Source: Candidatus Micrarchaeia archaeon (lineage in GTDB: Archaea > Micrarchaeota > Micrarchaeia > Norongarragalinales > UBA8480). Taken from it: a stretch of 17,895 nt of DNA. The first letter of the stretch is position 1. The number at the start of each line of letters is the position of its first letter. Under the pieces are notes generated by a model, which worked only from the letters and a program-made list of their open reading frames with translations, was not told where the DNA came from and ran no database searches. The position numbers were made by a program, and so were the translations under genes. Where the stretch lies: assembly GCA_039794045.1 (NCBI GenBank), contig JBAMLY010000014.1:2509-20403 (forward strand), read 5' to 3'. Below are positions 3,421-13,061 of the stretch, in pieces.

Positions 3421-4932
3421 TCAAACGCGTAGCGTGGGATCGCCGTACAAAATGAATTCAAGGGCAGTCAACTCGTCCACCTCGCGAGTTCCAAGCTTTT
3501 TCTTGGCGGCAACAAACGCATCGCCAATGCGCTCGCCTGACGCTAGTCCCTTCAAAGTAAAGTAAGTTAAAGCGTTAGCAACTCCTGCTCTCTCCACCGC
3601 CGCTTCGTCCACTGCGGCAGAGCTTGAGAGCTTGTTGTCCGACAACGCGCTCATCGTGCTTCCCACGAAAGCCTTCGCGCCTCCACGCAAAAACTTTATC
3701 GCGAGGCTCTCGTTAACAGTTCGCTGGGGGTTAGCACCATAACAAGAATCAGCCACCAAAATTTTTCCAGCAAAATCAATTTCCCGCGCTATCGAGGGAT
3801 TCAAGACCAAGTAGTCACTTGAATCGCTTCTCGCCCGCCCAATGAAAGCCTGCTCTTGCAGGGGCTCGTTGCCGTGCAATGCCACGAAGACGACGTTGCT
3901 TGAAAGCCCTTCGCGCAAGGAGTCAAGAGCAGGCGGAACATAAGCAAAGTCAAGCAAGCGAATCACGGAAAAAGGCGGAGCCACCAACGCCGCCTCGCCA
4001 GCCTTCTCGAAAGAAAAGCGGTTCAAGAAATCAAAGAAAACATCTTGCGAAACGACTTTAGAGACGCCTTCAAACGAAGCGCGCTTGGAGTGCGCTTGAA
4101 TCGCTTCCTCCAACAAGTCAACAAGCACTGAATCACGCGATTCTTCCTCGAAGCCGTCAGGCAAGCGACCCACTACCGCGCCGCCAGCCGAGTAAGGCAA
4201 GTCAGTCCAAACCATTGAATCGCTTTCAAGCAAGAACTCGAACACCGGACTGTAAGACGCGGAAGACAACGGGTTAGGCGCGCGAGGCATGGAAACAATT
4301 TTTGGTCCACCAACCAACAACAAGTAGCGAGCGCCGCTCTCGTTCAAAACAGTTAGCGCGGCGGCAACATCGCCCTCTGCAGTGAATGGCGCGCCTTCCT
4401 CGTCAAAAAAAACAGTTTCAGCGTTCACTCCGTCAGTTGAAGCGGCTTTCGCGAGGCGGTTCATCGCGTCCTCAACTTGCAACGCGATTTCTCGACCGTA
4501 CTTGGCGTTAAGGCGGTCGCGCCTGCTCGCAATAACCAGTTCAACTCTCTTTTCCTCCTGCAAGGGAAGCGTGGCTTGCGGGGATTCAGTGAGTTCAACG
4601 CTTGCCTTGGCATCGCCGGAAAGCGTGATCCGCAAAGAAGCGCCTTCAAAACCTTCTTTTTCCACTCTCACTGTAACGCGCTTGCTTGCAGGCAAGCCAT
4701 CAAAAACCGTGGTGCCATTGCCCAACGTAACCGAGGAAGCAAGCACCTTCCCACCAAAAACTATTTTCACTAGCGCGCCCTCTATTGGAGCGCCGGATAC
4801 AGTGGAAACGCTGACGCTCAACCGCGCCGCCTGCTGCTGCCCAAAAAAAGAAAGAGCAACGAACGCGAGCAACGCAGCTAAAACAATCAAGGCCACGAAA
4901 ACTGTTTTCCTTGAATTGAATTGAAAGTTCAA
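3421..4932 (-). CDS. Membrane-anchored peptidase C25 (gingipain-like, clan CD) with an N-terminal carboxypeptidase-regulatory-like beta-sandwich
   Basis: N-terminal TM helix; beta-sandwich motif GAPIEGALV...VEKEGF; C25 motifs YLLLVGG, D.PY...VVGRLP, LHGN (His at 3874-3876), DSCYG (Cys at 3742-3744), GAKAFVGST, IGDAF, LYGDP. Confidence 0.85.
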   Translation of the reverse strand: MNFQFNSRKTVFVALIVLAALLAFVALSFFGQQQAARLSVSVSTVSGAPIEGALVKIVFGGKVLASSVTLGNGTTVFDGLPASKRVTVRVEKEGFEGASLRITLSGDAKASVELTESPQATLPLQEEKRVELVIASRRDRLNAKYGREIALQVEDAMNRLAKAASTDGVNAETVFFDEEGAPFTAEGDVAAALTVLNESGARYLLLVGGPKIVSMPRAPNPLSSASYSPVFEFLLESDSMVWTDLPYSAGGAVVGRLPDGFEEESRDSVLVDLLEEAIQAHSKRASFEGVSKVVSQDVFFDFLNRFSFEKAGEAALVAPPFSVIRLLDFAYVPPALDSLREGLSSNVVFVALHGNEPLQEQAFIGRARSDSSDYLVLNPSIAREIDFAGKILVADSCYGANPQRTVNESLAIKFLRGGAKAFVGSTMSALSDNKLSSSAAVDEAAVERAGVANALTYFTLKGLASGERIGDAFVAAKKKLGTREVDELTALEFILYGDPTLRV

Positions 4933-4942
4933 GCCGACTCAC

Positions 4943-5560
4943 TTAATTCGTCTTCCAAGCCCGCGCTACAGCGCCAGTCTTCTTGTCCACTAAAACCACT
5001 GCGCCGTCCAAGAAAGAATAAGAAGGAACAGAAAAATTTTTTCCTTCCACTGAAGCCGTGCCTGCAGGAGTAGAATAACGCTTGAAGCCGGAAACCGCCC
5101 AGTAAGCCCCCGCGTCCACTACCTTCAAAGAAGCAGCAGGGTAACCAGCAAACAAATTCGCGAAAGCAGCGCGCGCTTCACTCGCGGAAACCCCTGCAGC
5201 CGAGGAAGGAAAAGCTTGAGCGGAAGGAAAAGAAAAATAAACGCTTGCAAAAAGAGTTCCTTTCTCTTCGCGGCCGGAAACGAATAAAACAGTCACTCCA
5301 AACAAGTTGGAAGCCACTCCCTTCTCCACGACAGAAAAACCACTTAATTGCTCTGAGCCATTATAAACCTTTAAAGCAATCCTTGAAAAGTCAGCTGAAA
5401 CGTCGGCGAGAAAGAAAACGAGTCCTCCCACTTCAACCGACTCGCCGCGAGCCAACTCCAACCTCTTTTCCTGCGATGAAGCCGAGCGCGCGAAAACCGA
5501 GAACAAAAGCACTACAACAAAACAAATAGCGGCGAACGCAACAAAGTTCTTGAAGGCCAT
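4943..5560 (-). CDS. Exported protein with an S-layer-like beta domain and a C-terminal PepSY-like domain
   Basis: Signal/TM segment; LELARGESVEVGGLVFFLADVS resembles archaeal S-layer-associated beta domains; VSASEARAAF...YWAVS...VLVDKKTGAV resembles PepSY. Domain calls were made by eye. Confidence 0.6.
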   Translation of the reverse strand: MAFKNFVAFAAICFVVVLLFSVFARSASSQEKRLELARGESVEVGGLVFFLADVSADFSRIALKVYNGSEQLSGFSVVEKGVASNLFGVTVLFVSGREEKGTLFASVYFSFPSAQAFPSSAAGVSASEARAAFANLFAGYPAASLKVVDAGAYWAVSGFKRYSTPAGTASVEGKNFSVPSYSFLDGAVVLVDKKTGAVARAWKTN

Positions 5561-5585
5561 GAAAACTTTTTGGCTTCACTGCTTA

Positions 5586-5921
5586 TTATGTTTTTTCAAC
5601 GCTGCTGGCTTGAATGAAAACAGGGCCGCCAACGACTCCCAAGAGTTTTTGAACCGTTCCCCGCACGACCACCGGCGTTCCTTCAGCGTAAAGAGTTCCC
5701 TTCCAAGCCACTGGAATAGAGTCGTTGGCTTCATCCCGCAAAGAAAACCCACTCAAGTCGCCCACGCGCAATACTCTTTCAACAGAGCCGCGCAATACAA
5801 CTTCCTTGCCAGCGAAAGCGTCAGGGTTTTGCTTCAACTCACTAACCGACTTAGAACCCTCCAAGCAACCAAACAAAAACAATGAAAAAACAATTAACAA
5901 CGCAAAAAGAAAACCCTTCAA
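5586..5921 (-). CDS. Lipoprotein with an extracytoplasmic OB-fold
   Basis: Probable TTG start at 5921 after GAGGAGGT (the listed ORF extends to 5963); lipobox LFLFGC; OB-like pattern NPDAFAGKEVVLRGSV...FSLRD...EGTPVVVRGTV. Confidence 0.75.
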   Translation of the reverse strand: MKGFLFALLIVFSLFLFGCLEGSKSVSELKQNPDAFAGKEVVLRGSVERVLRVGDLSGFSLRDEANDSIPVAWKGTLYAEGTPVVVRGTVQKLLGVVGGPVFIQASSVEKT

Positions 5922-5963
5922 AGCCAAACCTCCTCGCCCCCCAAAAAACAAGAAGGCATTCAT

Positions 5964-6061: not shown

Positions 6062-9000
6062 TTACTCTATCTCCATTTCCAATTCTACTTGGCCAGTGCC
6101 GCACGGAATGGTTTGACCGATTATAATGTTTTCTGCGACGCCCTTCAAGGGGTCTTCCTCGCCTTTCACGCAAGCATTTATCAAGTGCTTCGCGGTTTCC
6201 TCAAAAGCAGCACGCGCGAGTACTGAAGCTTTCTCGCCAGCCAACCCATGGCGCCCCATGCTCTTGAGCGAGCCCTTGAAAGTCATGGCGTCAGCAATGA
6301 GCATCACGTGGCGCACGTCCACGTCAATGTCTTGCGCTTCAAGAACTTTCACTATCTCGGATATTATTGCGTTGCGCGCCGCCTCTATTCCCAGCACCTT
6401 GTTTATCTCGGCTATGTCGTTAGTAGTAGTACGGTAAGGCTCTACTTCAGGAACCTTAAACACTTCCTCCAAGTTAGAGCCCTCGGTCGCGATCACGTAC
6501 TCGCCATCGCGCTCGATGATGATGGCGCGCGAAATGCCTTTGATTCCGCGCAAGCTCAATTCTTTGAGCTTGTTTGTTATCTTGCGAATGTTTTTGAGCG
6601 TGTCCACTTGCGGCTTTATTGCCACGCCACGCGCTGTCTTCTCGCAGGAAGCAACGCCCTTTATTTTCTTGAGGATTTCGTCGGCAGACAACCCGTACTC
6701 CTTAAGCGCTTCCTCGTCGAAGTCAATGCGTATCACGCGCTTGTCGAAGTCTTCCTTTACTTCCGCGACTTTCTCCAAGCGAACTTCCTCGATAGAAGCC
6801 GCTATCCTGCGGACTTTCGCGTAGTCCTTTGCATACTCTTTCTTTAAGTAAACTTCCATGACTGGATTCTTTGGAGTCTTGCGCGCGTCAACTATTTCCA
6901 CGAGGCGAGTGAAGCCAAGCTGCGCAAGCGAAAGCACGCCCGCGTAGTGGAAAGTCCTCAAAGTCATTTGCGTGCCTGGCTCTCCAATGCTTTGCGCGGC
7001 AACCACTCCCACTGGCTCGCCGTAAGCTATTGACTTGTTGTTAGAGGGGTCAACGCCGTCGTCGCCGTACTTGAATTGAATAACATTTCCCTCGGCGTCG
7101 CGCACGCTCAAGTCTTCTGCCACGGTAACGTCTTGCAAGGCGTTGATCAAGCGGCGCTGCATGTAGCCAGTCTTGGCTGGGTTGACGCCCTTGTCTACTA
7201 CTGCATCGCGCCCGCCTGCCGCGTGAAAGAAGTACTCGAAAGGCGAAAGCCCGTGAGTAAAAGCAGAGGAAACGAAGCCGCGCGCGCTGTCACTCAAGTC
7301 GCCCTTTTTTTGGTGGGGCAGAATGCGGCGCTCGTAACCCGCCCTCATCCTGCGACCGCGAATTGCCTGTTGTCCCACCAAGCCACACATTTGCACTATG
7401 TTTATGAGCGAGCCACGCGCCTTAGAGCGAGCCATTACTACTGCAGGGTTCAAGTGACGCGTTTTCCCGTTGAAGTCAATGACGGTTTTCCTCACGTGCT
7501 TCAAAACCACTTCGTTGCAGTCGTTGCGCACGCCTTCCACTACATTCATAACCAGTTCTTCAAGCGTTTCGCGCAAGCTCTTGCCAGGCTTGCGTTCTAG
7601 CTTGCCGTTCCTGAATTTTTCAACGAGCTCGCGCACCTTATTTCTGCCGTGGCGGTAAAGCTCACGGATCTGGCTGCGTCCTTCTTCGCTCAACTCGTAG
7701 TCTGCGAGGGAAAGAGACAGGCCAGCGAGAGTCACGAAGCGCGAAGAAAGACGAGTTGCTGCATCAATGAATTTCCTGGCTTCCGCGGCGCCTAACTCAG
7801 CGAATATCTCACGAGCTATCTTGTCTATCACTCTGTCGTCAACGTAGCCTTCTTTGAGGACGCCATTCACTATCTTTACTTGGTGTCCTCCCCTGTTTTT
7901 CGCTTCCATCGAAAAATCTTTAGGGAGAATGGCGCTGAAGACTTCCCTGCCGTCAACTACTTCGTCTTTGAAGTCCGCAGTGACTCCAGCGTGGTAAAGC
8001 ACGTCGCACGCTTCCACGCGCGAGAGAAACACGTCGTCAGTCAAAAGGTAGATGCCGCTCAAGTGGTCCAGCGTCGGCACGACTAACGGCTCGCCGTTCC
8101 TCGGCGACAAAATGTTTTGCTCTACCTTCATTAAAAGCTCGGCTTCAGCGCGGGCTTCCTCGTTTTGAGGAACGTGAATATTCATTTCGTCTCCGTCAAA
8201 GTCCGCGTTGTATGGCTTGCACGCAGCAACGTTCAACCTGAAAGTCTTGCCCGGCATTATCTTAGCCGAGTGCGCCATCATGCTGACGCGGTGAAGCGAG
8301 GGCTGGCGGTTGAATATCACTGTGTCCCCATCCATCAACTGCCGCTCGACCACAAAGCCTGGCGCGAGCTCGGAAAGAACTTCTTCCACATTAGCTGGAG
8401 TAATCTTCTTGCGTCTCCCGTCAGGCCGCACAATGTAATTTATTTTTTGGGGGTTCTCGCGAATCACTTGCTTCAAGGATTCAATGTTCCACGAAGTAAC
8501 TCCTTCCGGAATCGTGAGCTCGGAAGCAATAGCTTCAGGAATTCCTATCTCGTTTATGCCTATCACGGCATCAGGAGAAACCACGGTGCGCGCACTGAAG
8601 TTAACGCGCTTGCCACTCAAATTGTACCTGAAGCGCCCCTCTTTTCCTTTCAAGCGCTGAAACAACGTCTTCAACTGCCTACCAGAACGGTGGCGGGCCG
8701 GCGGAATTCCAGCCGTCTCATTGTCAAAATAAGTTATCACGTGGTACTGCAAAAGCTCCCACAAGTCCTCTATGATGAGTTGTGGAGCGCCAGCGTCAAT
8801 GTTTTCCCCCAAACGCTGGTTTATGCGCAGAATGTCTACCAGCTTGTGTGTCAAATCGTCTTCGCTGCGCTCGCCTGTTTCCAGCGTAATCGAGGGACGC
8901 ACGGTAACCGGCGGAACTAAAAGCACCGTCAAAACCATGTTTTCTGGGCGCACGCTCACGCCAAGCTTCTTCAAGTCATCGTCTGGAATGCGTTCCAGCC

Positions 9001-9451
9001 TCTCACGCGTCTCGTTCGGCAAAAGCTTGCGGTCTTCCTCGTAGTAAGTCGCTGGCTTGACGAACTTTATCGTCTTCTGTTTCTCGCCGCAGTGCGGACA
9101 CTCTCCCACGTGCCTTGCCTTCTCAAGAGTGCTCGTCTCGCTCAAAAGCCTGCCGCACTTGCGGCAAGTCGCCCGCAAAAGCAAGTAAATCGTTTTAGCG
9201 AAACCAATGTGTATCACTGGACGCACTAACTCGATGTGCCCGAAGTGCCCACTGCAAGTCTTGATGCGGCCGCCGCACGTCTTACACTTCAATCCAGGAT
9301 CTATGACTCCAAGGTGTTGGTCCGCCAACCCCCCGCTTATAGGATAGCCGTCCTCGTCATAAGTGTCGGGAACCGTTATTTTGACGGCGCTCATACTGCG
9401 AATTTGTTCCGGTGAAAACAAAGAGAAAAAAATACTTTTCACTACTTCCAT
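6062..9451 (-). CDS. rpoA: DNA-directed RNA polymerase largest subunit, A'+A'' fused (Rpo1)
   Basis: Zn sites CKTC...CSGHFGH and CRKC/CPHC; NRQPSLH; catalytic YNADFDGDEMN; GYMQRRL. The same frame continues into the A'' motifs AQSIGEPGTQMT, LGIEAAR, VDVRH, RAAFEE, ENIIIGQ. Confidence 0.98.
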   Translation of the reverse strand: MEVVKSIFFSLFSPEQIRSMSAVKITVPDTYDEDGYPISGGLADQHLGVIDPGLKCKTCGGRIKTCSGHFGHIELVRPVIHIGFAKTIYLLLRATCRKCGRLLSETSTLEKARHVGECPHCGEKQKTIKFVKPATYYEEDRKLLPNETRERLERIPDDDLKKLGVSVRPENMVLTVLLVPPVTVRPSITLETGERSEDDLTHKLVDILRINQRLGENIDAGAPQLIIEDLWELLQYHVITYFDNETAGIPPARHRSGRQLKTLFQRLKGKEGRFRYNLSGKRVNFSARTVVSPDAVIGINEIGIPEAIASELTIPEGVTSWNIESLKQVIRENPQKINYIVRPDGRRKKITPANVEEVLSELAPGFVVERQLMDGDTVIFNRQPSLHRVSMMAHSAKIMPGKTFRLNVAACKPYNADFDGDEMNIHVPQNEEARAEAELLMKVEQNILSPRNGEPLVVPTLDHLSGIYLLTDDVFLSRVEACDVLYHAGVTADFKDEVVDGREVFSAILPKDFSMEAKNRGGHQVKIVNGVLKEGYVDDRVIDKIAREIFAELGAAEARKFIDAATRLSSRFVTLAGLSLSLADYELSEEGRSQIRELYRHGRNKVRELVEKFRNGKLERKPGKSLRETLEELVMNVVEGVRNDCNEVVLKHVRKTVIDFNGKTRHLNPAVVMARSKARGSLINIVQMCGLVGQQAIRGRRMRAGYERRILPHQKKGDLSDSARGFVSSAFTHGLSPFEYFFHAAGGRDAVVDKGVNPAKTGYMQRRLINALQDVTVAEDLSVRDAEGNVIQFKYGDDGVDPSNNKSIAYGEPVGVVAAQSIGEPGTQMTLRTFHYAGVLSLAQLGFTRLVEIVDARKTPKNPVMEVYLKKEYAKDYAKVRRIAASIEEVRLEKVAEVKEDFDKRVIRIDFDEEALKEYGLSADEILKKIKGVASCEKTARGVAIKPQVDTLKNIRKITNKLKELSLRGIKGISRAIIIERDGEYVIATEGSNLEEVFKVPEVEPYRTTTNDIAEINKVLGIEAARNAIISEIVKVLEAQDIDVDVRHVMLIADAMTFKGSLKSMGRHGLAGEKASVLARAAFEETAKHLINACVKGEEDPLKGVAENIIIGQTIPCGTGQVELEMEIE

Positions 9452-9462
9452 TTCTTACCGCC

Positions 9463-11295
9463 TCAACCCTGCGCGCGCAGCGAAAGCTTAGGAAATATTC
9501 CTATGCTCTTCATTTCATCCAACAATAACTTGAACGCGTAACTCATTTCAACTTCCGAGACGCTGGAACTGCCACACAACGGACAATAACGGCGGTTCTT
9601 GACTTTGTCGTGCACTGCCAGCGAACCACAAGAGTTGCAGACTAACTCTATAGTCTTGTCCGCCGAGTCCAGCATGCGTTCCTTCAACAATGAAGCCGCG
9701 CCATAGCCAATAAAGCAGTCGCGCTCCATTTCTCCAAGCCTCAAACCGCCTTCCCTCGCGCGCCCCTCTGTCGGCTGGTGCGTAAGCATTTGAACCGGGC
9801 CACGCGAGCGCGCGTGCATTTTAAGCGAAACCAAGTGATGCAGTCTCTGGTAGTAAATCACGCCAATGTAAATTTTTGCCTTCAAGGGAATGCCAGTTAC
9901 CGCGTCGTAAAGCGTTTCAGTTCCAGTCAAGCGGAAGCCGTTCTCGTGCAACACTTTCTCGAAGTCTTCCTGCGTCTCGCCGCGGAACGCCGTGCCATCC
10001 TTTATTCTTCCGTCGAGCGCGGCAGCCTTGCCAGCAAGCATTTCAAGCAAGTGCCCCGCAGTCATGCGCCCCGGAATCGCGTGCGTGTTTATTATCAAGT
10101 CTGGAACGATTCCGTCGCGAGTGAAAGGCAAGTCTTCTTGTTCGGCAAGCAAGGCCACAACTCCTTTTTGGCCGAAGCGGGAAGCAAACTTGTCTCCAAT
10201 CTCTGGAATGTTGAGCGTGCGAACGCGGACTTTAATGAATCGGTTTCCAGCGAGAGTCTCGCTCAACATGACTGCGTCAACCACTCCGCTCTCGTTGCCT
10301 CGCACGGTAACGCTTGCCTCGCGGCGTTTTTCGCTCTCGATCTCGAAAGCACTTATTTCTTTGAGGAAGCGGGGCGGCGAAGTTTTTCCGACGAGCACCG
10401 AGTTTGGTCCCACAAGAGTTTCAGGCGAAATAAAGCCGTTCTCGTCCAACTGGCTGTAAGCCTCGGGACCCAAGTAACCTTGCACGAACTCTTCCGGCAC
10501 TTGGTACTTGTCCTTCTGGCCGCCTGGATAGCGGCCTTCCTCGTCAGCGTAAGTGCGAATGAATACGCTGCGCGCCAAACCCCTCTCAACTGATGCTTTG
10601 TTTAATATGATGGCGTCGTTCAAGTTGAAGCCATTATAAGACAGTACTGCCACAACCATGTTTTGCCCGCTTGGGCGCTTGAAGTTGCCGAGAGTCTCGT
10701 AAATCGAGGTAGTGACGAGTGGACGGTGGGGGTAAAACAAGATGTAGCCGCGCGTCTCGCTCCTGTAATTAAAGTTTGCCGCGTACAAGCCCAGCGACTG
10801 CTTCGTGTGCTGGGCGGCCATTAAAACCCTGGCCGAAGAATTGTATTCAGGAAAGGGATTCTGGGAAGAAGCAACGCCGAGCATTGAAACAGGGTCTATT
10901 TCAAGGTGAGTGTATTTTTCCTCGTTCTTGCCGCTGGCTTTCTCTAAGTCTTCGGGGTTCAAGGCAACGAAGGCGTTCTCTTCTTCTTCAGCGTCCAAGT
11001 ACTCTATTACTCCTTGCTTGACTAAGTCATTCCAAGAAAGTTCTCCTTTCTTTAGCGCTTCCAAGTGCTTTTCAGTCAAGAGCGGCTTGTTGTTCTTCAC
11101 CACGATCAACGGCCTGCGAGGGCGCCCGTCGTCAGTGTTAATGAAGACTTCGTTTGTGCGCGCATAGAAAGCAACATTCGTTTGCCCGTCTATTTCGCCG
11201 GCGCGCCGTTTCTCGCGAATTTCTTTGGCGAGCTTATCGCCGTCTTCAGCGAAGCCAACAAACCTTCCATTCAAGTAAACGCTTGCTTTCTCCAT
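9463..11295 (-). CDS. rpoB1: DNA-directed RNA polymerase subunit B' (Rpo2C)
   Basis: YLDAEEEE, GKTSPPRF, GDKFASR.GQKG, QPTEGRAREGGLRLGEMERD, C-terminal Zn ribbon CNSC/CPLC. Likely ATG at 11295 after GTGA; alternative GTG at 11304 overlaps the B'' stop. Confidence 0.97.
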   Translation of the reverse strand: MEKASVYLNGRFVGFAEDGDKLAKEIREKRRAGEIDGQTNVAFYARTNEVFINTDDGRPRRPLIVVKNNKPLLTEKHLEALKKGELSWNDLVKQGVIEYLDAEEEENAFVALNPEDLEKASGKNEEKYTHLEIDPVSMLGVASSQNPFPEYNSSARVLMAAQHTKQSLGLYAANFNYRSETRGYILFYPHRPLVTTSIYETLGNFKRPSGQNMVVAVLSYNGFNLNDAIILNKASVERGLARSVFIRTYADEEGRYPGGQKDKYQVPEEFVQGYLGPEAYSQLDENGFISPETLVGPNSVLVGKTSPPRFLKEISAFEIESEKRREASVTVRGNESGVVDAVMLSETLAGNRFIKVRVRTLNIPEIGDKFASRFGQKGVVALLAEQEDLPFTRDGIVPDLIINTHAIPGRMTAGHLLEMLAGKAAALDGRIKDGTAFRGETQEDFEKVLHENGFRLTGTETLYDAVTGIPLKAKIYIGVIYYQRLHHLVSLKMHARSRGPVQMLTHQPTEGRAREGGLRLGEMERDCFIGYGAASLLKERMLDSADKTIELVCNSCGSLAVHDKVKNRRYCPLCGSSSVSEVEMSYAFKLLLDEMKSIGIFPKLSLRAQG

Positions 11296-11300
11296 TCCAA

Positions 11301-12767
11301 TCACGCCTTCATGCTCACACCAAGTTTTTTCAGCACTGGCTCCAAAGCCTTTTCTTCAACACCAGAAGTTATCTCGCAGAACAGCGCCAGGTTCTTGACG
11401 AGGCCGCAGTTCGGTCCCTCCGGAGTCTCGTTGGGATCCAGCCTACCAAAGTGCGTGCCATTCAAGTCGCGCGCCTTGTGGTGAGGATGTTTTTTGGCGA
11501 GCGGCGAAGTAACGCGGCGCAAGAACGAAAGACTGGAAATAAAGTTGTAGCGGTCAAGCGGCTGGCACACGCCAGTGTAGCCGCCAACCCAGTTGCCGGT
11601 AGCCAAAGAGTACTTAATGCGCTCGCTTAAAGCGTCAGGACGCACTACCACTGTCATGCTCATCTTGCGCCCGCGCACGTTAGCGCGCTCTATCTGGTAA
11701 CTAATGTCTTTGACTAGAAACTGGAAAGCATACCTGAACAACTCGCTCATGAGCTTGCCCGCAATCTTGAGGCGCTTGTTGGCGTAGTGGTCCTTGTCCT
11801 CCACTCTCCGCTTCTTGTAAGCAACGAGAATGCAGCGCTCAGCCATTCTACACAAAAAGTACGCTTTGGCGAGGCGCGCTTCCTCTTCCACGCCAATGTG
11901 AGGGAACAAGTAGTGGTCCAACAACAACTCAGCGCGCTTGACTTGGTATTCTACTGGCTGGCCCGGCGCAGCGCGCTTGCCAATCGTTTCAAGGGCTTCG
12001 CGCTTGTTCTTGGTCTCGTCAGCCTCCAAATTCAACAAAACATCGTTTTGAACTTCTACGTCGGGAGAAAAAGCCTCCAAAATCTTTTCGTTCTTTTCCA
12101 AGCCGAGAGCGCGCAACAACAAAACTAGTTCCAAGGACTTGCTATAAGAAGGCATTGAAGCCGAAAGCCTGCCTTCCACCGTGCGGTCAACAGTGCAACG
12201 CCCACGGAAGCCAAGGCGAGTAGAAAAAATTTTGGCGCTAGTAACCCCCTTGTCTTTGTCGCGGCTCACGAGAATGCGGTTGGGAGCTAAGTCCTCCATC
12301 GTCATCAAAGTCTTTTCAGTGCCATTGATTATGAAATAACCACCAACGTCTTGCGGGTCCTCCCCCAATTCCACGAGCTCTTGAGGAGTCTTGCCGTGCA
12401 AGTAACACAAATTACTTTTAGTCATGACGGGAAGCTCGCCAACGTAAATGTCTTCCGTCTTCTTTTCAACGCCGTTCAAGACTATAGTCATTTCCAGGAA
12501 GAGAGGAGCCGTATAAGAAATGTCGCGCAAGCGCGCCTCCATTGGGTAAAGCGGGCGCCGCGAGCCGTCAGCCTCGGTAATCATTGGCCTCTCGACGCGA
12601 ATCTTGCCAAGCTTTATCACGAGGCCCTCTATCTGTGGTTCTATCACGCGCTGCGAGTCAACCACTTCCTGGAGCCCCGTGGCAACGAACTTATTGTAAG
12701 AATCAAGGTATTGCTTCACCAAAGAATTCTGCAAGAGATATTGACGTGTAAGTTCCGGGAAAGCCAT
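11301..12767 (-). CDS. rpoB2: DNA-directed RNA polymerase subunit B'' (Rpo2N)
   Basis: PMEARLRDISY, GGYFIINGTEK, DKDHYANKRL, LATGNW, ETPEGPNCGLVKNLA; AAGGTG SD upstream. Confidence 0.97.
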   Translation of the reverse strand: MAFPELTRQYLLQNSLVKQYLDSYNKFVATGLQEVVDSQRVIEPQIEGLVIKLGKIRVERPMITEADGSRRPLYPMEARLRDISYTAPLFLEMTIVLNGVEKKTEDIYVGELPVMTKSNLCYLHGKTPQELVELGEDPQDVGGYFIINGTEKTLMTMEDLAPNRILVSRDKDKGVTSAKIFSTRLGFRGRCTVDRTVEGRLSASMPSYSKSLELVLLLRALGLEKNEKILEAFSPDVEVQNDVLLNLEADETKNKREALETIGKRAAPGQPVEYQVKRAELLLDHYLFPHIGVEEEARLAKAYFLCRMAERCILVAYKKRRVEDKDHYANKRLKIAGKLMSELFRYAFQFLVKDISYQIERANVRGRKMSMTVVVRPDALSERIKYSLATGNWVGGYTGVCQPLDRYNFISSLSFLRRVTSPLAKKHPHHKARDLNGTHFGRLDPNETPEGPNCGLVKNLALFCEITSGVEEKALEPVLKKLGVSMKA

Positions 12768-12812: not shown

Positions 12813-13061
12813 TTAATCTACCACGAGACGGTAATAAAGGGCGTCCTTGCCAGTGGCAGGACTAACCCTAGTAATTTTTATTACGTCGCCAACTTTAGGG
12901 CCGAGAGGAATCAAAGACGGGTCAGTAACACGAATTTTCGGCAGCTTGTCCAACGTCAAACCATAGTCGCTCAAAAGCTTCTTGACTTCCTCTCCAGAAG
13001 CAACCTGCATGCGTGGAACTAAAACGTGGACAGTAGGGTAAGATTCGTGGCTCTCAGGCAT
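12813..13061 (-). CDS. rpoH: DNA-directed RNA polymerase subunit H (Rpo5)
   Basis: HVLVP, LPKI...DP, GDVIKITR.S...G...YYRLV; canonical first position in the rpoH-B-A operon. Confidence 0.96.
   Translation of the reverse strand: MPESHESYPTVHVLVPRMQVASGEEVKKLLSDYGLTLDKLPKIRVTDPSLIPLGPKVGDVIKITRVSPATGKDALYYRLVVD

What the first reader, a model, noticed from the sequence alone, without database searches (positions are those of the whole stretch)
7150..7235. RNA polymerase bridge helix with a proline at the near-invariant central threonine
Seen: the codons read [28 protein letters not shown] (CCA at 7178-7180). Established: the archaeal/eukaryotic consensus is FFHAMGGREGLVDTAV(R/K)T(A/S)x(S/T)GY, and the Thr (yeast Rpb1 T831, M. 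jannaschii A' T821) faces the templating base. Here E>D, G>A, L>V, T>K, A>G, R/K>N and T>P cluster in one stretch while both flanks are canonical and in frame, which argues against a sequencing slip. Engineered prolines at certain bridge-helix positions are known to change archaeal RNAP activity. Inference: a natural, permanently kinked bridge helix, i.e. a cellular RNAP with an altered translocation/catalysis mechanism.
Basis: partly seen in the sequence, partly recalled or inferred. Interest (0 to 1): 0.85.

Follow-up and report, generated by a model that had tools for sequence, protein, structure and literature searches.

The report
Proline in RNA polymerase bridge helix
A whole order of tiny archaea runs its only RNA polymerase with a proline where almost all life has a threonine facing the growing RNA end; the variant is real and conserved, but nobody has shown that it changes how the enzyme works.

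Summary
The gene lies on the minus strand (6062-9451) and is a fused A'+A'' Rpo1 of 1129 aa, the only copy in a 655-kb DPANN genome. Pro758 (CCA, 7178-7180) aligns without gaps to yeast Rpb1 T831 and M. jannaschii A' T821.

It is not an error. The DKGVNP motif is present in every Rpo1 recovered from the same order, which sources name Ca. Norongarragalinales (Micrarchaeota). All four proline codons are used. No proline was found at this site in 352 genomes of other orders.

In Rpo1, four positions that are conserved elsewhere differ throughout this order. Three sit in the bridge helix or trigger loop, including loss of the trigger-loop hinge proline (yeast P1099; Thr here). The order also fuses A' and A''.

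A second, unrelated lineage (P0256) gained the same Thr-to-Pro change but keeps the hinge proline, so the two changes are not obligatorily coupled.

The "permanently kinked helix, altered mechanism" reading is unproven. AlphaFold breaks the helix just before the proline, but a Thr-bearing control breaks worse.

The closest precedent is the Nanoarchaeum equitans bridge-helix proline, one residue later. This scan noted the same feature earlier on another genome (e1-5121430). I rate it a new variant of a known kind, of moderate interest.

The parts
6062..9451 (-). rpo1: fused A'+A'' largest subunit of the archaeal RNA polymerase, 1129 aa (P0001), single copy in the genome
   Evidence: Translation. 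Pfam Rpb1 domains 1-5. NCBIfam A' model on residues 108-806 and A'' model on 805-1126. One match in the organism's own genome.
7136..7243 (-). Bridge helix, residues 737-772 (helices 737-755 and 758-772 in the AlphaFold2 model)
7178..7180 (-). Pro758 codon (CCA), equivalent to yeast Rpb1 T831 and M. jannaschii A' T821
   Evidence: Proline in 90 of 90 in-group rows, against Thr in 186 of 191 out-group rows.
7181..7192 (-). Lys754-Gly755-Val756-Asn757, the residues just before the proline. Lys-Gly is shared with Thr-bearing DPANN lineages; Asn757 replaces the usual Arg/Lys (mj R820).
7199..7201 (-). Val751 (mj L814 position), an order-specific replacement of a conserved Leu in the bridge helix
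6887..6985 (-). Trigger loop region, residues 823-855 (GEPGTQMTLRTFHYAGV...GFTRLVEIVD)
6908..6910 (-). Thr848 codon (ACT) at the trigger-loop C-terminal hinge, where other polymerases have Pro (S. solfataricus A'' P102; yeast P1099 by coordinates)
   Evidence: 0 of 88 in-group rows have Pro; 241 of 246 out-group rows do.
8675..8677 (-). Gln259 (CAG), replacing the Pro of the SGRP motif just before KGKEGR (T. kodakarensis Rpo1N P300)
7037..7039 (-). Approximate A'/A'' junction (residue 805) of the fused gene
   Evidence: Relatives of other orders have a stop codon here.
9463..11304 (-). rpoB' (Rpo2 C-terminal half, 613 aa) with nine order-specific replacements of conserved residues
11301..12767 (-). 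rpoB'' (Rpo2 N-terminal half, 488 aa)
12813..13061 (-). rpoH (Rpb5 C-terminal domain, 82 aa), first gene of the rpoH-B''-B'-A cluster

Best explanation
This is the working, selected form of the only RNA polymerase of an order of Micrarchaeota (source names: Ca. Norongarragalinales). At the origin of the order, the bridge-helix threonine that points at the i+1 site (yeast T831, M. jannaschii T821) became proline by a single-base change, ACN to CCN. On the same stem branch the trigger-loop C-terminal hinge proline (yeast P1099) became threonine. A bridge-helix Leu became Val. The Pro before the KGKEGR motif became Gln. Nine conserved Rpo2 residues changed, two of them in the loop that carries yeast Rpb2 R766/Y769. 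The A' and A'' genes fused. All of these steps are shown by sequence comparison. What follows is inferred. The proline, with Gly three residues before it, removes one backbone hydrogen bond and builds a permanent weak point or hinge into the turn of the bridge helix that bends most. [quoted passage not shown] The enzyme therefore stays active but probably has shifted translocation, backtracking or fidelity behaviour. The confidence given covers the whole statement: the shown part (real, selected, order-wide, co-substituted) I hold at about 0.95, the inferred mechanism at about 0.4.
For: Real and selected:
- The motif is present in 30 of 30 Rpo1 loci from 11 families of the order.
- A general Pro-at-this-site DNA pattern hit 47 of 401 genomes sampled from the phylum. 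That is 46 of 48 order members plus G000, 0 of 352 others, and 0 control hits.
- Pro codons are CCC 23, CCG 12, CCA 7 and CCT 4, my hand tally of the 46 matches listed.
- 88 of the 120 listed protein clusters at 90% identity carry Asn-Pro at this site.
- There is a single rpo1 in the genome.

One origin: the Pro clade is monophyletic with SH-aLRT 100 on a long stem of 0.47.

Concentration in moving parts: only 4 of 1116 assessed Rpo1 columns are order-specific replacements of conserved residues, and 3 of those are in the bridge helix or trigger loop.

Literature (passages read):
- T831 sits on the most-bending turn and probes the 3' base pair; T831A lowers backtracking-dependent cleavage (Da 2016).
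- mj T821P keeps clearly detectable activity, and S824P is superactive (Tan 2008).
- The yeast bridge-helix T834P phenotype depends specifically on P1099 (Duan 2025).
- P1099 variants are mostly loss-of-function (Qiu 2016).
- N. equitans RNAP, with a natural proline one residue later, is active in vitro (Nottebaum and Weinzierl 2021).
Against: - No kinetic or structural measurement exists for this enzyme.
- AlphaFold2 gives no proline-specific signal. The query helix breaks at 756-757 (pLDDT 59), but the Thr-bearing control P0237 breaks at 805-809 with pLDDT below 50. That control lacks A'', so the comparison is confounded.
- The pairing of bridge-helix Pro with loss of the hinge Pro rests on one evolutionary event.
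- The independent Pro lineage P0256/P0269 keeps the hinge Pro. Its likely A'' partner P0284 and all 8 of the 9 closest A'' proteins whose trigger loop was printed carry GLPRF (P0279 was not printed). It also keeps all nine out-group Rpo2 residues.
- Weinzierl 2010 found that two-residue deletions around T821-Q823 keep more than 50% activity in mjRNAP, so this region may tolerate change with little effect.
Confidence: 0.5

Rival explanations
1. Near-neutral drift followed by entrenchment. In small DPANN populations the Thr-to-Pro change was fixed by chance on a fast-evolving branch and is now held in place by epistasis with other changes. [quoted passage not shown] DPANN polymerases carry many radical active-site substitutions: the Lys-Gly and Asp-Ser variants, Ile at this site in P0018, and Pro one residue later in Woese/Pace/Nanoarchaeota-type sequences. 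T821P retains activity, and two-residue deletions in this region are tolerated in mjRNAP. A second lineage acquired the proline without the accompanying changes.
Against: Thr is kept in 186 of 191 out-group rows. In 171 bridge helices surveyed by Tan et al., only T, A and V appear at this site (supplement pie-chart labels). Tan et al. call T821 highly sensitive to alteration. [quoted passage not shown]
Confidence: 0.3
2. Re-tuning of backtracking and proofreading. Removing the threonine 'probe' lowers fraying and backtracking in a lineage that lacks the TFS/TFIIS cleavage factor.
For: Da 2016 reports that T831A reduces fraying and cleavage, especially TFIIS-stimulated cleavage. No PF01096 zinc ribbon was found in G000, which is 92% complete. 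In the order, 5 of 61 genomes have a hit, and 4 of those lie inside open frames of 561-913 aa.
Against: Scarcity of the TFS ribbon is class-wide: 9 of 151 genomes have a hit. The other orders lack it too and keep Thr, so there is no specific association. A 39-position domain can be missed in divergent genomes.
Confidence: 0.12
3. Artefact. The proline comes from a sequencing or assembly error, a pseudogene or second copy, or a misalignment that places it off the T831 position.
For: None found.
Against: The 1129-aa frame is intact and single-copy. An independent assembler's contig is identical. The motif is conserved with synonymous variation in 47 genomes. The alignment to yeast, T. kodakarensis and the M. 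jannaschii numbering is ungapped.
Confidence: 0.01

Closest known systems
Natural bridge-helix proline of Nanoarchaeum equitans RNAP (neA' P810; also Pace- and Woesearchaeota sequences), Nottebaum and Weinzierl 2021, PMC8204694 (abstract and passages read)
   Same: A DPANN archaeon whose only RNAP carries a proline in the centre of the bridge helix. It belongs to a wider set of radical active-site substitutions and is found in many environmental relatives. Some of those relatives also have fused A'/A''.
   Different: The position differs. The paper equates neA' R808 with mj R820, so P810 corresponds to mj A822, one residue after the threonine, which is kept (R-T-P). My examples are P0005, P0013 and L044. 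Here the threonine itself is replaced (N-P-A). The one Woesearchaeota-labelled example with both parts (L044) keeps the trigger-loop hinge proline, which is lost here. The paper has 0 occurrences of 'Micrarchae'.
Engineered M. jannaschii A' bridge-helix prolines (T821P, A822P, S824P, M808P), Tan et al. 2008 and Weinzierl 2010 (passages read)
   Same: T821P is exactly this substitution. It left 'clearly detectable activity', which shows that a continuous helix is not strictly required.
   Different: Those are single engineered changes in a canonical background. The superactive ones (M808P, S824P) are at the two hinges, not at T821. The bar height for T821P could not be read from the supplement, because only the legend and axis text were held.
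Yeast Rpb1 T831A (Da et al. 2016) and the T834P-P1099 interaction (Duan et al. 2025; Qiu et al. 2016) (passages read)
   Same: The same two residues are involved: the bridge-helix Thr facing i+1 and the trigger-loop hinge Pro. Published genetics link a bridge-helix proline to P1099.
   Different: The yeast proline is at T834, not T831. No T831P or T831P/P1099T data were found. A search for T831P, T790P, T821P and T1088P returned only Tan 2008 in an RNAP context.
Canonical archaeal Rpo1N/Rpo1C (for example T. kodakarensis 4QIW, S. solfataricus 2PMZ)
   Same: Same domains, same metal-A motif NADFDGD, same bridge-helix flanks and trigger-loop core.
   Different: Those enzymes have split A'/A'', Thr in the bridge helix and Pro in the trigger-loop hinge. 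Their trigger loop is one residue longer.

Membership tests
Archaeal RNA polymerase largest subunit (Rpo1 / A'+A'') | Rpb1 domains 1-5 in order | tested here: met
   Pfam PF04997, PF00623, PF04983, PF05000 and PF04998, all above cut-off. NCBIfam A' and A'' equivalog models also match.
Archaeal RNA polymerase largest subunit (Rpo1 / A'+A'') | Catalytic metal-A motif NADFDGD | tested here: met
   YNADFDGDEMN at residues 414-424. D417, D419 and D421 are invariant in alignment A1.
Archaeal RNA polymerase largest subunit (Rpo1 / A'+A'') | Sits in the rpoH-rpoB-rpoA gene cluster and is the only copy | tested here: met
Archaeal RNA polymerase largest subunit (Rpo1 / A'+A'') | Split into A' and A'' genes (usual in archaea) | tested here: not met
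   One open frame here. In 38 of 39 matched order genomes, a single frame spans the junction. The three relatives from other orders that I inspected have a stop codon there. This is an architectural variant and does not exclude membership.
Nanoarchaeal-type natural bridge-helix proline (Nottebaum and Weinzierl 2021) | Proline at the mj A822-equivalent position with the Thr retained (R-T-P) | tested here: not met
   Here the sequence is N-P-A, so the proline occupies the Thr position itself.
Nanoarchaeal-type natural bridge-helix proline (Nottebaum and Weinzierl 2021) | Accompanying substitutions in fork loop 3, the metal-B motif and the trigger-loop edge proline | not tested
   The B'' half (fork loops) was not analysed. 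The order-specific changes in the B' half are different ones.
Superactive hinge-proline mutants (mj M808P/S824P, yeast T834P) | Proline at the BH-HN or BH-HC hinge residue | tested here: not met
   The M808 position is Ala745 and the S824 position is Thr761. The proline is at the T821 position.
Superactive hinge-proline mutants (mj M808P/S824P, yeast T834P) | Raised specific activity | not testable with these tools
   This needs a reconstituted enzyme.

The most novel reading that the evidence does not exclude
An entire archaeal order has rebuilt the mechanical core of transcription. [quoted passage not shown] Together these would give a cellular RNA polymerase with an intrinsically different balance of translocation and backtracking, operating without a TFS-type cleavage factor.
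Probability: 0.3. Interest if true: 0.8.

Novelty: new variant of a known kind. Interest (0 to 1): 0.6.

Why it matters
Whether bridge-helix bending drives translocation and backtracking has been argued for more than twenty years, mostly from engineered mutants and simulations. This order offers a natural enzyme, kept under selection across at least 11 families, in which the residue on the most-bending turn is a helix breaker and its published genetic partner in the trigger loop (P1099) is changed as well. A second lineage carries the proline alone. Between them, the two lineages give ready-made single and multiple 'mutants' for reconstitution, cryo-EM and deep-mutational work. If the enzyme turns out to behave normally, that matters too: it would show that the near-universal threonine is not mechanistically essential.

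Tried and rejected
- AlphaFold2 monomer models. The query breaks the bridge helix at 756-757. The Thr control P0237 breaks it more, at lower confidence. The result is inconclusive for a proline-specific kink. The control has no A'' and neither model has Rpo2 or nucleic acid.
- The AU test on the full 52-row tree did not finish in three runs. I replaced it with a 23-row test with the bridge-helix columns left out. The group was named after the tree had been seen.
- TFS/TFIIS link. Scarcity of the PF01096 ribbon is class-wide and not specific to the proline clade.
- Expression. No RNA holder was listed for the stretch, so nothing can be said.
- Run X2 held none of the stretch.
- Tan 2008 supplements. 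Only legends, axis text and pie labels were readable, so there is no activity value for T821P. One search fetched the R829 file by mistake.
- Additional data file 20 (the proline summary) was never read. Supplement number 20 turned out to be the T821 file.
- I considered and dropped a scan for Pro at this site across all of life.
Full report
**What is in the window**

The stretch 7150-7235 lies inside a 1129-codon open frame on the minus strand, 6062-9451. Its translation (P0001) contains [28 protein letters not shown] at residues 741-768. Pro758 is the codon CCA at 7178-7180, read on the minus strand.

Pfam finds Rpb1 domains 1-5 in order. NCBIfam places the A' model on residues 108-806 and the A'' model on 805-1126, so this is a fused A'+A'' Rpo1.

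Upstream on the same strand lie a split rpoB (B' at 9463-11304, B'' at 11301-12767) and rpoH (12813-13061).

The genome holds 655,099 bases in 16 contigs and is 92% complete. It has one rpo1, so this is the organism's only polymerase.

**Position of the proline**

phmmer against PDB chains aligns residues 701-804 to yeast Rpb1 774-877 and to T. kodakarensis Rpo1N 778-881, without gaps. Pro758 therefore falls on yeast T831.

Tan et al. 2008 print the M. jannaschii numbering L814 to R830. The stretch is the same length here, so Pro758 = mjA' T821.

**The proline is not an error**

A Logan contig of run X1 covers 6900-7500 with no differences at mean word depth 33.7. X1 is probably the source run, so this is not independent support.

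The stronger evidence is comparative:
- All 30 of 30 Rpo1 loci from 11 families of the same order carry DKGVNP(A/S)KTGY.
- The exact [8 protein letters not shown] DNA pattern occurs in 46 of 401 genomes sampled from the phylum, all of them in the order.
- A looser pattern requires only R-x9-P-x3-G-Y-x2-R-R-L-x-N-A. It hits 47 of 401 genomes: 46 of 48 order members plus G000, 0 of 352 others, and no control hits.
- The two order members that miss are G002 and G006. I did not read G002's bridge helix; it may carry the VNPANTGYMQSRL variant seen in P0234-P0236, which the pattern would miss. No rpo1 was found in G006, which is 77% complete.
- Proline is encoded by CCC 23 times, CCG 12, CCA 7 and CCT 4, my hand tally of the 46 matches listed. 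That is selection on the amino acid.
- Among the 120 best protein clusters sharing words with this region, 88 have Asn-Pro, 1 has Arg-Pro and 31 have Thr.

Sources name members Ca. Micrarchaeota, Ca. Norongarragalinales and Ca. Norongarragalina meridionalis. The tool's order code cannot be matched formally to that name.

**How unusual the proline is**

Among 150 representatives at 50% identity, spanning archaea and eukaryotes, the site is Thr in 119 of the 124 rows (the query included) that my pattern could read. It is Pro only in the query and 3 rows that carry the query's own DKG(V/T)NP motif, and Ile once.

In a profile alignment of everything fetched, 186 of 191 out-group rows have Thr. 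Two have Pro (P0256 and P0269), two have Ile, and one Ala comes from a badly aligned row.

Tan et al.'s supplement lists only T, A and V among 171 bridge helices; I read the pie-chart labels.

Five other families of the same class keep Thr, with motifs NTAIRT, QKGLLT and GKALVT.

**What changed together with it**

I compared the order with all other fetched sequences, column by column.

In Rpo1 there were 90 in-group rows, with 191-246 out-group rows at the four signature columns below. Four of 1116 assessed columns are order-specific replacements of conserved residues:

| Residue here | Usual residue | Location |
|---|---|---|
| Gln259 | Pro | SGRP motif before KGKEGR; T. kodakarensis P300 |
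| Val751 | Leu | bridge helix |
| Pro758 | Thr | bridge helix |
| Thr848 | Pro | trigger-loop C-terminal hinge |

- The hinge position is Pro in 241 of 246 out-group rows and in 0 of 88 in-group rows. The in-group has Thr 82, Gln 4 and Asn 1; the remaining row is not itemised, and one search shows one Ser at this position.
- The hinge corresponds to S. solfataricus A'' P102 and, by coordinates, to yeast P1099.
- On chains that carry both elements, bridge-helix Pro goes with a non-Pro hinge in 76 of 76. Bridge-helix Thr goes with hinge Pro in 73 of 73.

In the B' half of Rpo2 there were 30 in-group rows, which cover only about residues 125-613, and 129 out-group rows. Nine of 481 columns qualify. 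They include Leu161 and His166, which map to yeast Rpb2 768 and 773 beside R766 and Y769, and Leu523, Phe531 and Ser547, which map to yeast 1130, 1138 and 1154.

The A'/A'' fusion is also order-wide. In 38 of 39 matched genomes a single frame spans the junction. The three other-order relatives I inspected have a stop codon there.

**One origin here, and a second elsewhere**

An IQ-TREE of the A' part (52 rows) makes the Pro clade monophyletic, with SH-aLRT 100 on a stem of 0.47.

P0256 is an 895-aa split A' with the motif DKGIRPSTSGY. Its near-identical twin P0269 matches at 894 of 895 residues and comes from a second source. P0256 sits inside a different clade of DKGIRT sequences, at 78% identity to P0237 and with support of 100.

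With the bridge-helix columns removed, forcing all Pro rows into one clade costs 165 log-likelihood units (p-AU 1.9e-90, 23 rows). The group was named after the tree had been seen.

This second lineage seems to have the proline alone. Its likely A'' partner is P0284, matched by the same longest-contig length. P0284 and all 8 of the 9 nearest A'' proteins whose trigger loop was printed keep the hinge GLPRF (P0279 was not printed). Its likely B' partner P0402 keeps all nine out-group residues.

So the link between bridge-helix Pro and hinge loss rests on a single event and is not obligatory.

**How it probably works**

Published work bears on this; I read passages, not whole papers.
- T821/T831 points at the i+1 site and contacts the template, the RNA 3' end or the NTP, and is 'highly sensitive to alteration'. 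Even so, T821P keeps clearly detectable activity, while S824P and M808P are superactive (Tan 2008, Weinzierl 2010).
- T831 lies on the helical turn that bends most and acts as a probe of the 3' base pair. T831A lowers backtracking-dependent cleavage (Da 2016).
- In yeast, the phenotype of bridge-helix T834P depends specifically on P1099, and P1099 variants are mostly loss-of-function (Duan 2025, Qiu 2016).
- N. equitans RNAP has a natural proline one residue later and is active in vitro. Simulations in that paper predict local loss of helicity (Nottebaum and Weinzierl 2021).

From this I infer that Pro758, with Gly755 before it, builds a permanent weak point into the bending turn. [quoted passage not shown] This is inference only.

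AlphaFold2 does break the helix at 756-757 (pLDDT 59). The Thr-bearing control P0237 breaks at 805-809 with pLDDT below 50. The models therefore do not discriminate.

**Rival explanations**

Drift followed by entrenchment is a serious rival. It is supported by the long stem, by the many radical DPANN substitutions, by the tolerance of this region to deletions, and by the proline-only lineage.

A link to the missing cleavage factor TFS is weak. The PF01096 ribbon is absent from G000 and rare in the order (5 of 61 genomes), but it is equally rare across the class (9 of 151), where Thr is kept.

An artefact is excluded.

**Novelty**

A search for 'bridge helix' with 'Micrarchaeota' found only a Cas9 paper. 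Searches for T831P, T790P, T821P and T1088P found only Tan 2008 in an RNAP context. A 2025 Micrarchaeota genomics paper has no occurrence of 'RNA polymerase', 'rpoA' or 'bridge helix'. The Nottebaum and Weinzierl paper does not mention Micrarchaeota.

So in the library searched, a natural proline at the threonine position itself is not in print. The phenomenon of natural bridge-helix prolines in DPANN is known. I rate this a new variant of a known kind, with interest 0.6.

Noticed in passing
window 6062-9451 (junction near 7037-7039): A' and A'' are fused into one gene throughout the order, with a very short junction. The three relatives from other orders that I inspected have a stop codon between the two parts.
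   Followed up: yes
relatives G008, G019, G022; proteins P0002, P0160, P0165, P0188, P0200, P0227: Some order members have an rpo1 of 1608-1671 aa carrying intein and LAGLIDADG domains (PF14890, PF14528). The insertion is at the start of the trigger loop, between query residues about 827 and 832. The window's gene has no intein.
   Followed up: partly
window 3421-5963, minus strand: I recall the usual genes after rpoA as L30e, NusA, S12 and S7. Instead there are two ORFs (5586-5963 and 4943-5560); the 205-aa ORF has no Pfam or NCBIfam match, and the 125-aa ORF has only one below-cut-off NCBIfam hit (EexN lipoprotein, E 1.2e-4). They are followed by a 503-aa protein with CarboxypepD_reg and Peptidase_C25 domains.
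   Followed up: partly
L043 (record CAZVAJ010000001.1): A Thr-bearing DPANN lineage has the bridge helix DKGINT and the trigger-loop hinge GFPRL. It thus shares the Asn and the Phe of the window's NP / GFTRL state while keeping both the Thr and the Pro, so it looks like an intermediate.
   Followed up: no
P0018 / P0272 (1597 aa, ENA): Another natural departure at the same site: isoleucine in place of the threonine (DKSIRISVSGY).
   Followed up: no
L046-L049 (genus g31 of the order): The only TFIIS-type zinc ribbons above cut-off in the order lie inside open frames of 561-913 aa, not in a TFS-sized gene.
   Followed up: no
class-wide: The TFS/TFIIS zinc ribbon PF01096 was found in only 9 of 151 genomes of the class (at least 85% complete), and 7 of those 9 are in one family (f13).
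   Followed up: partly
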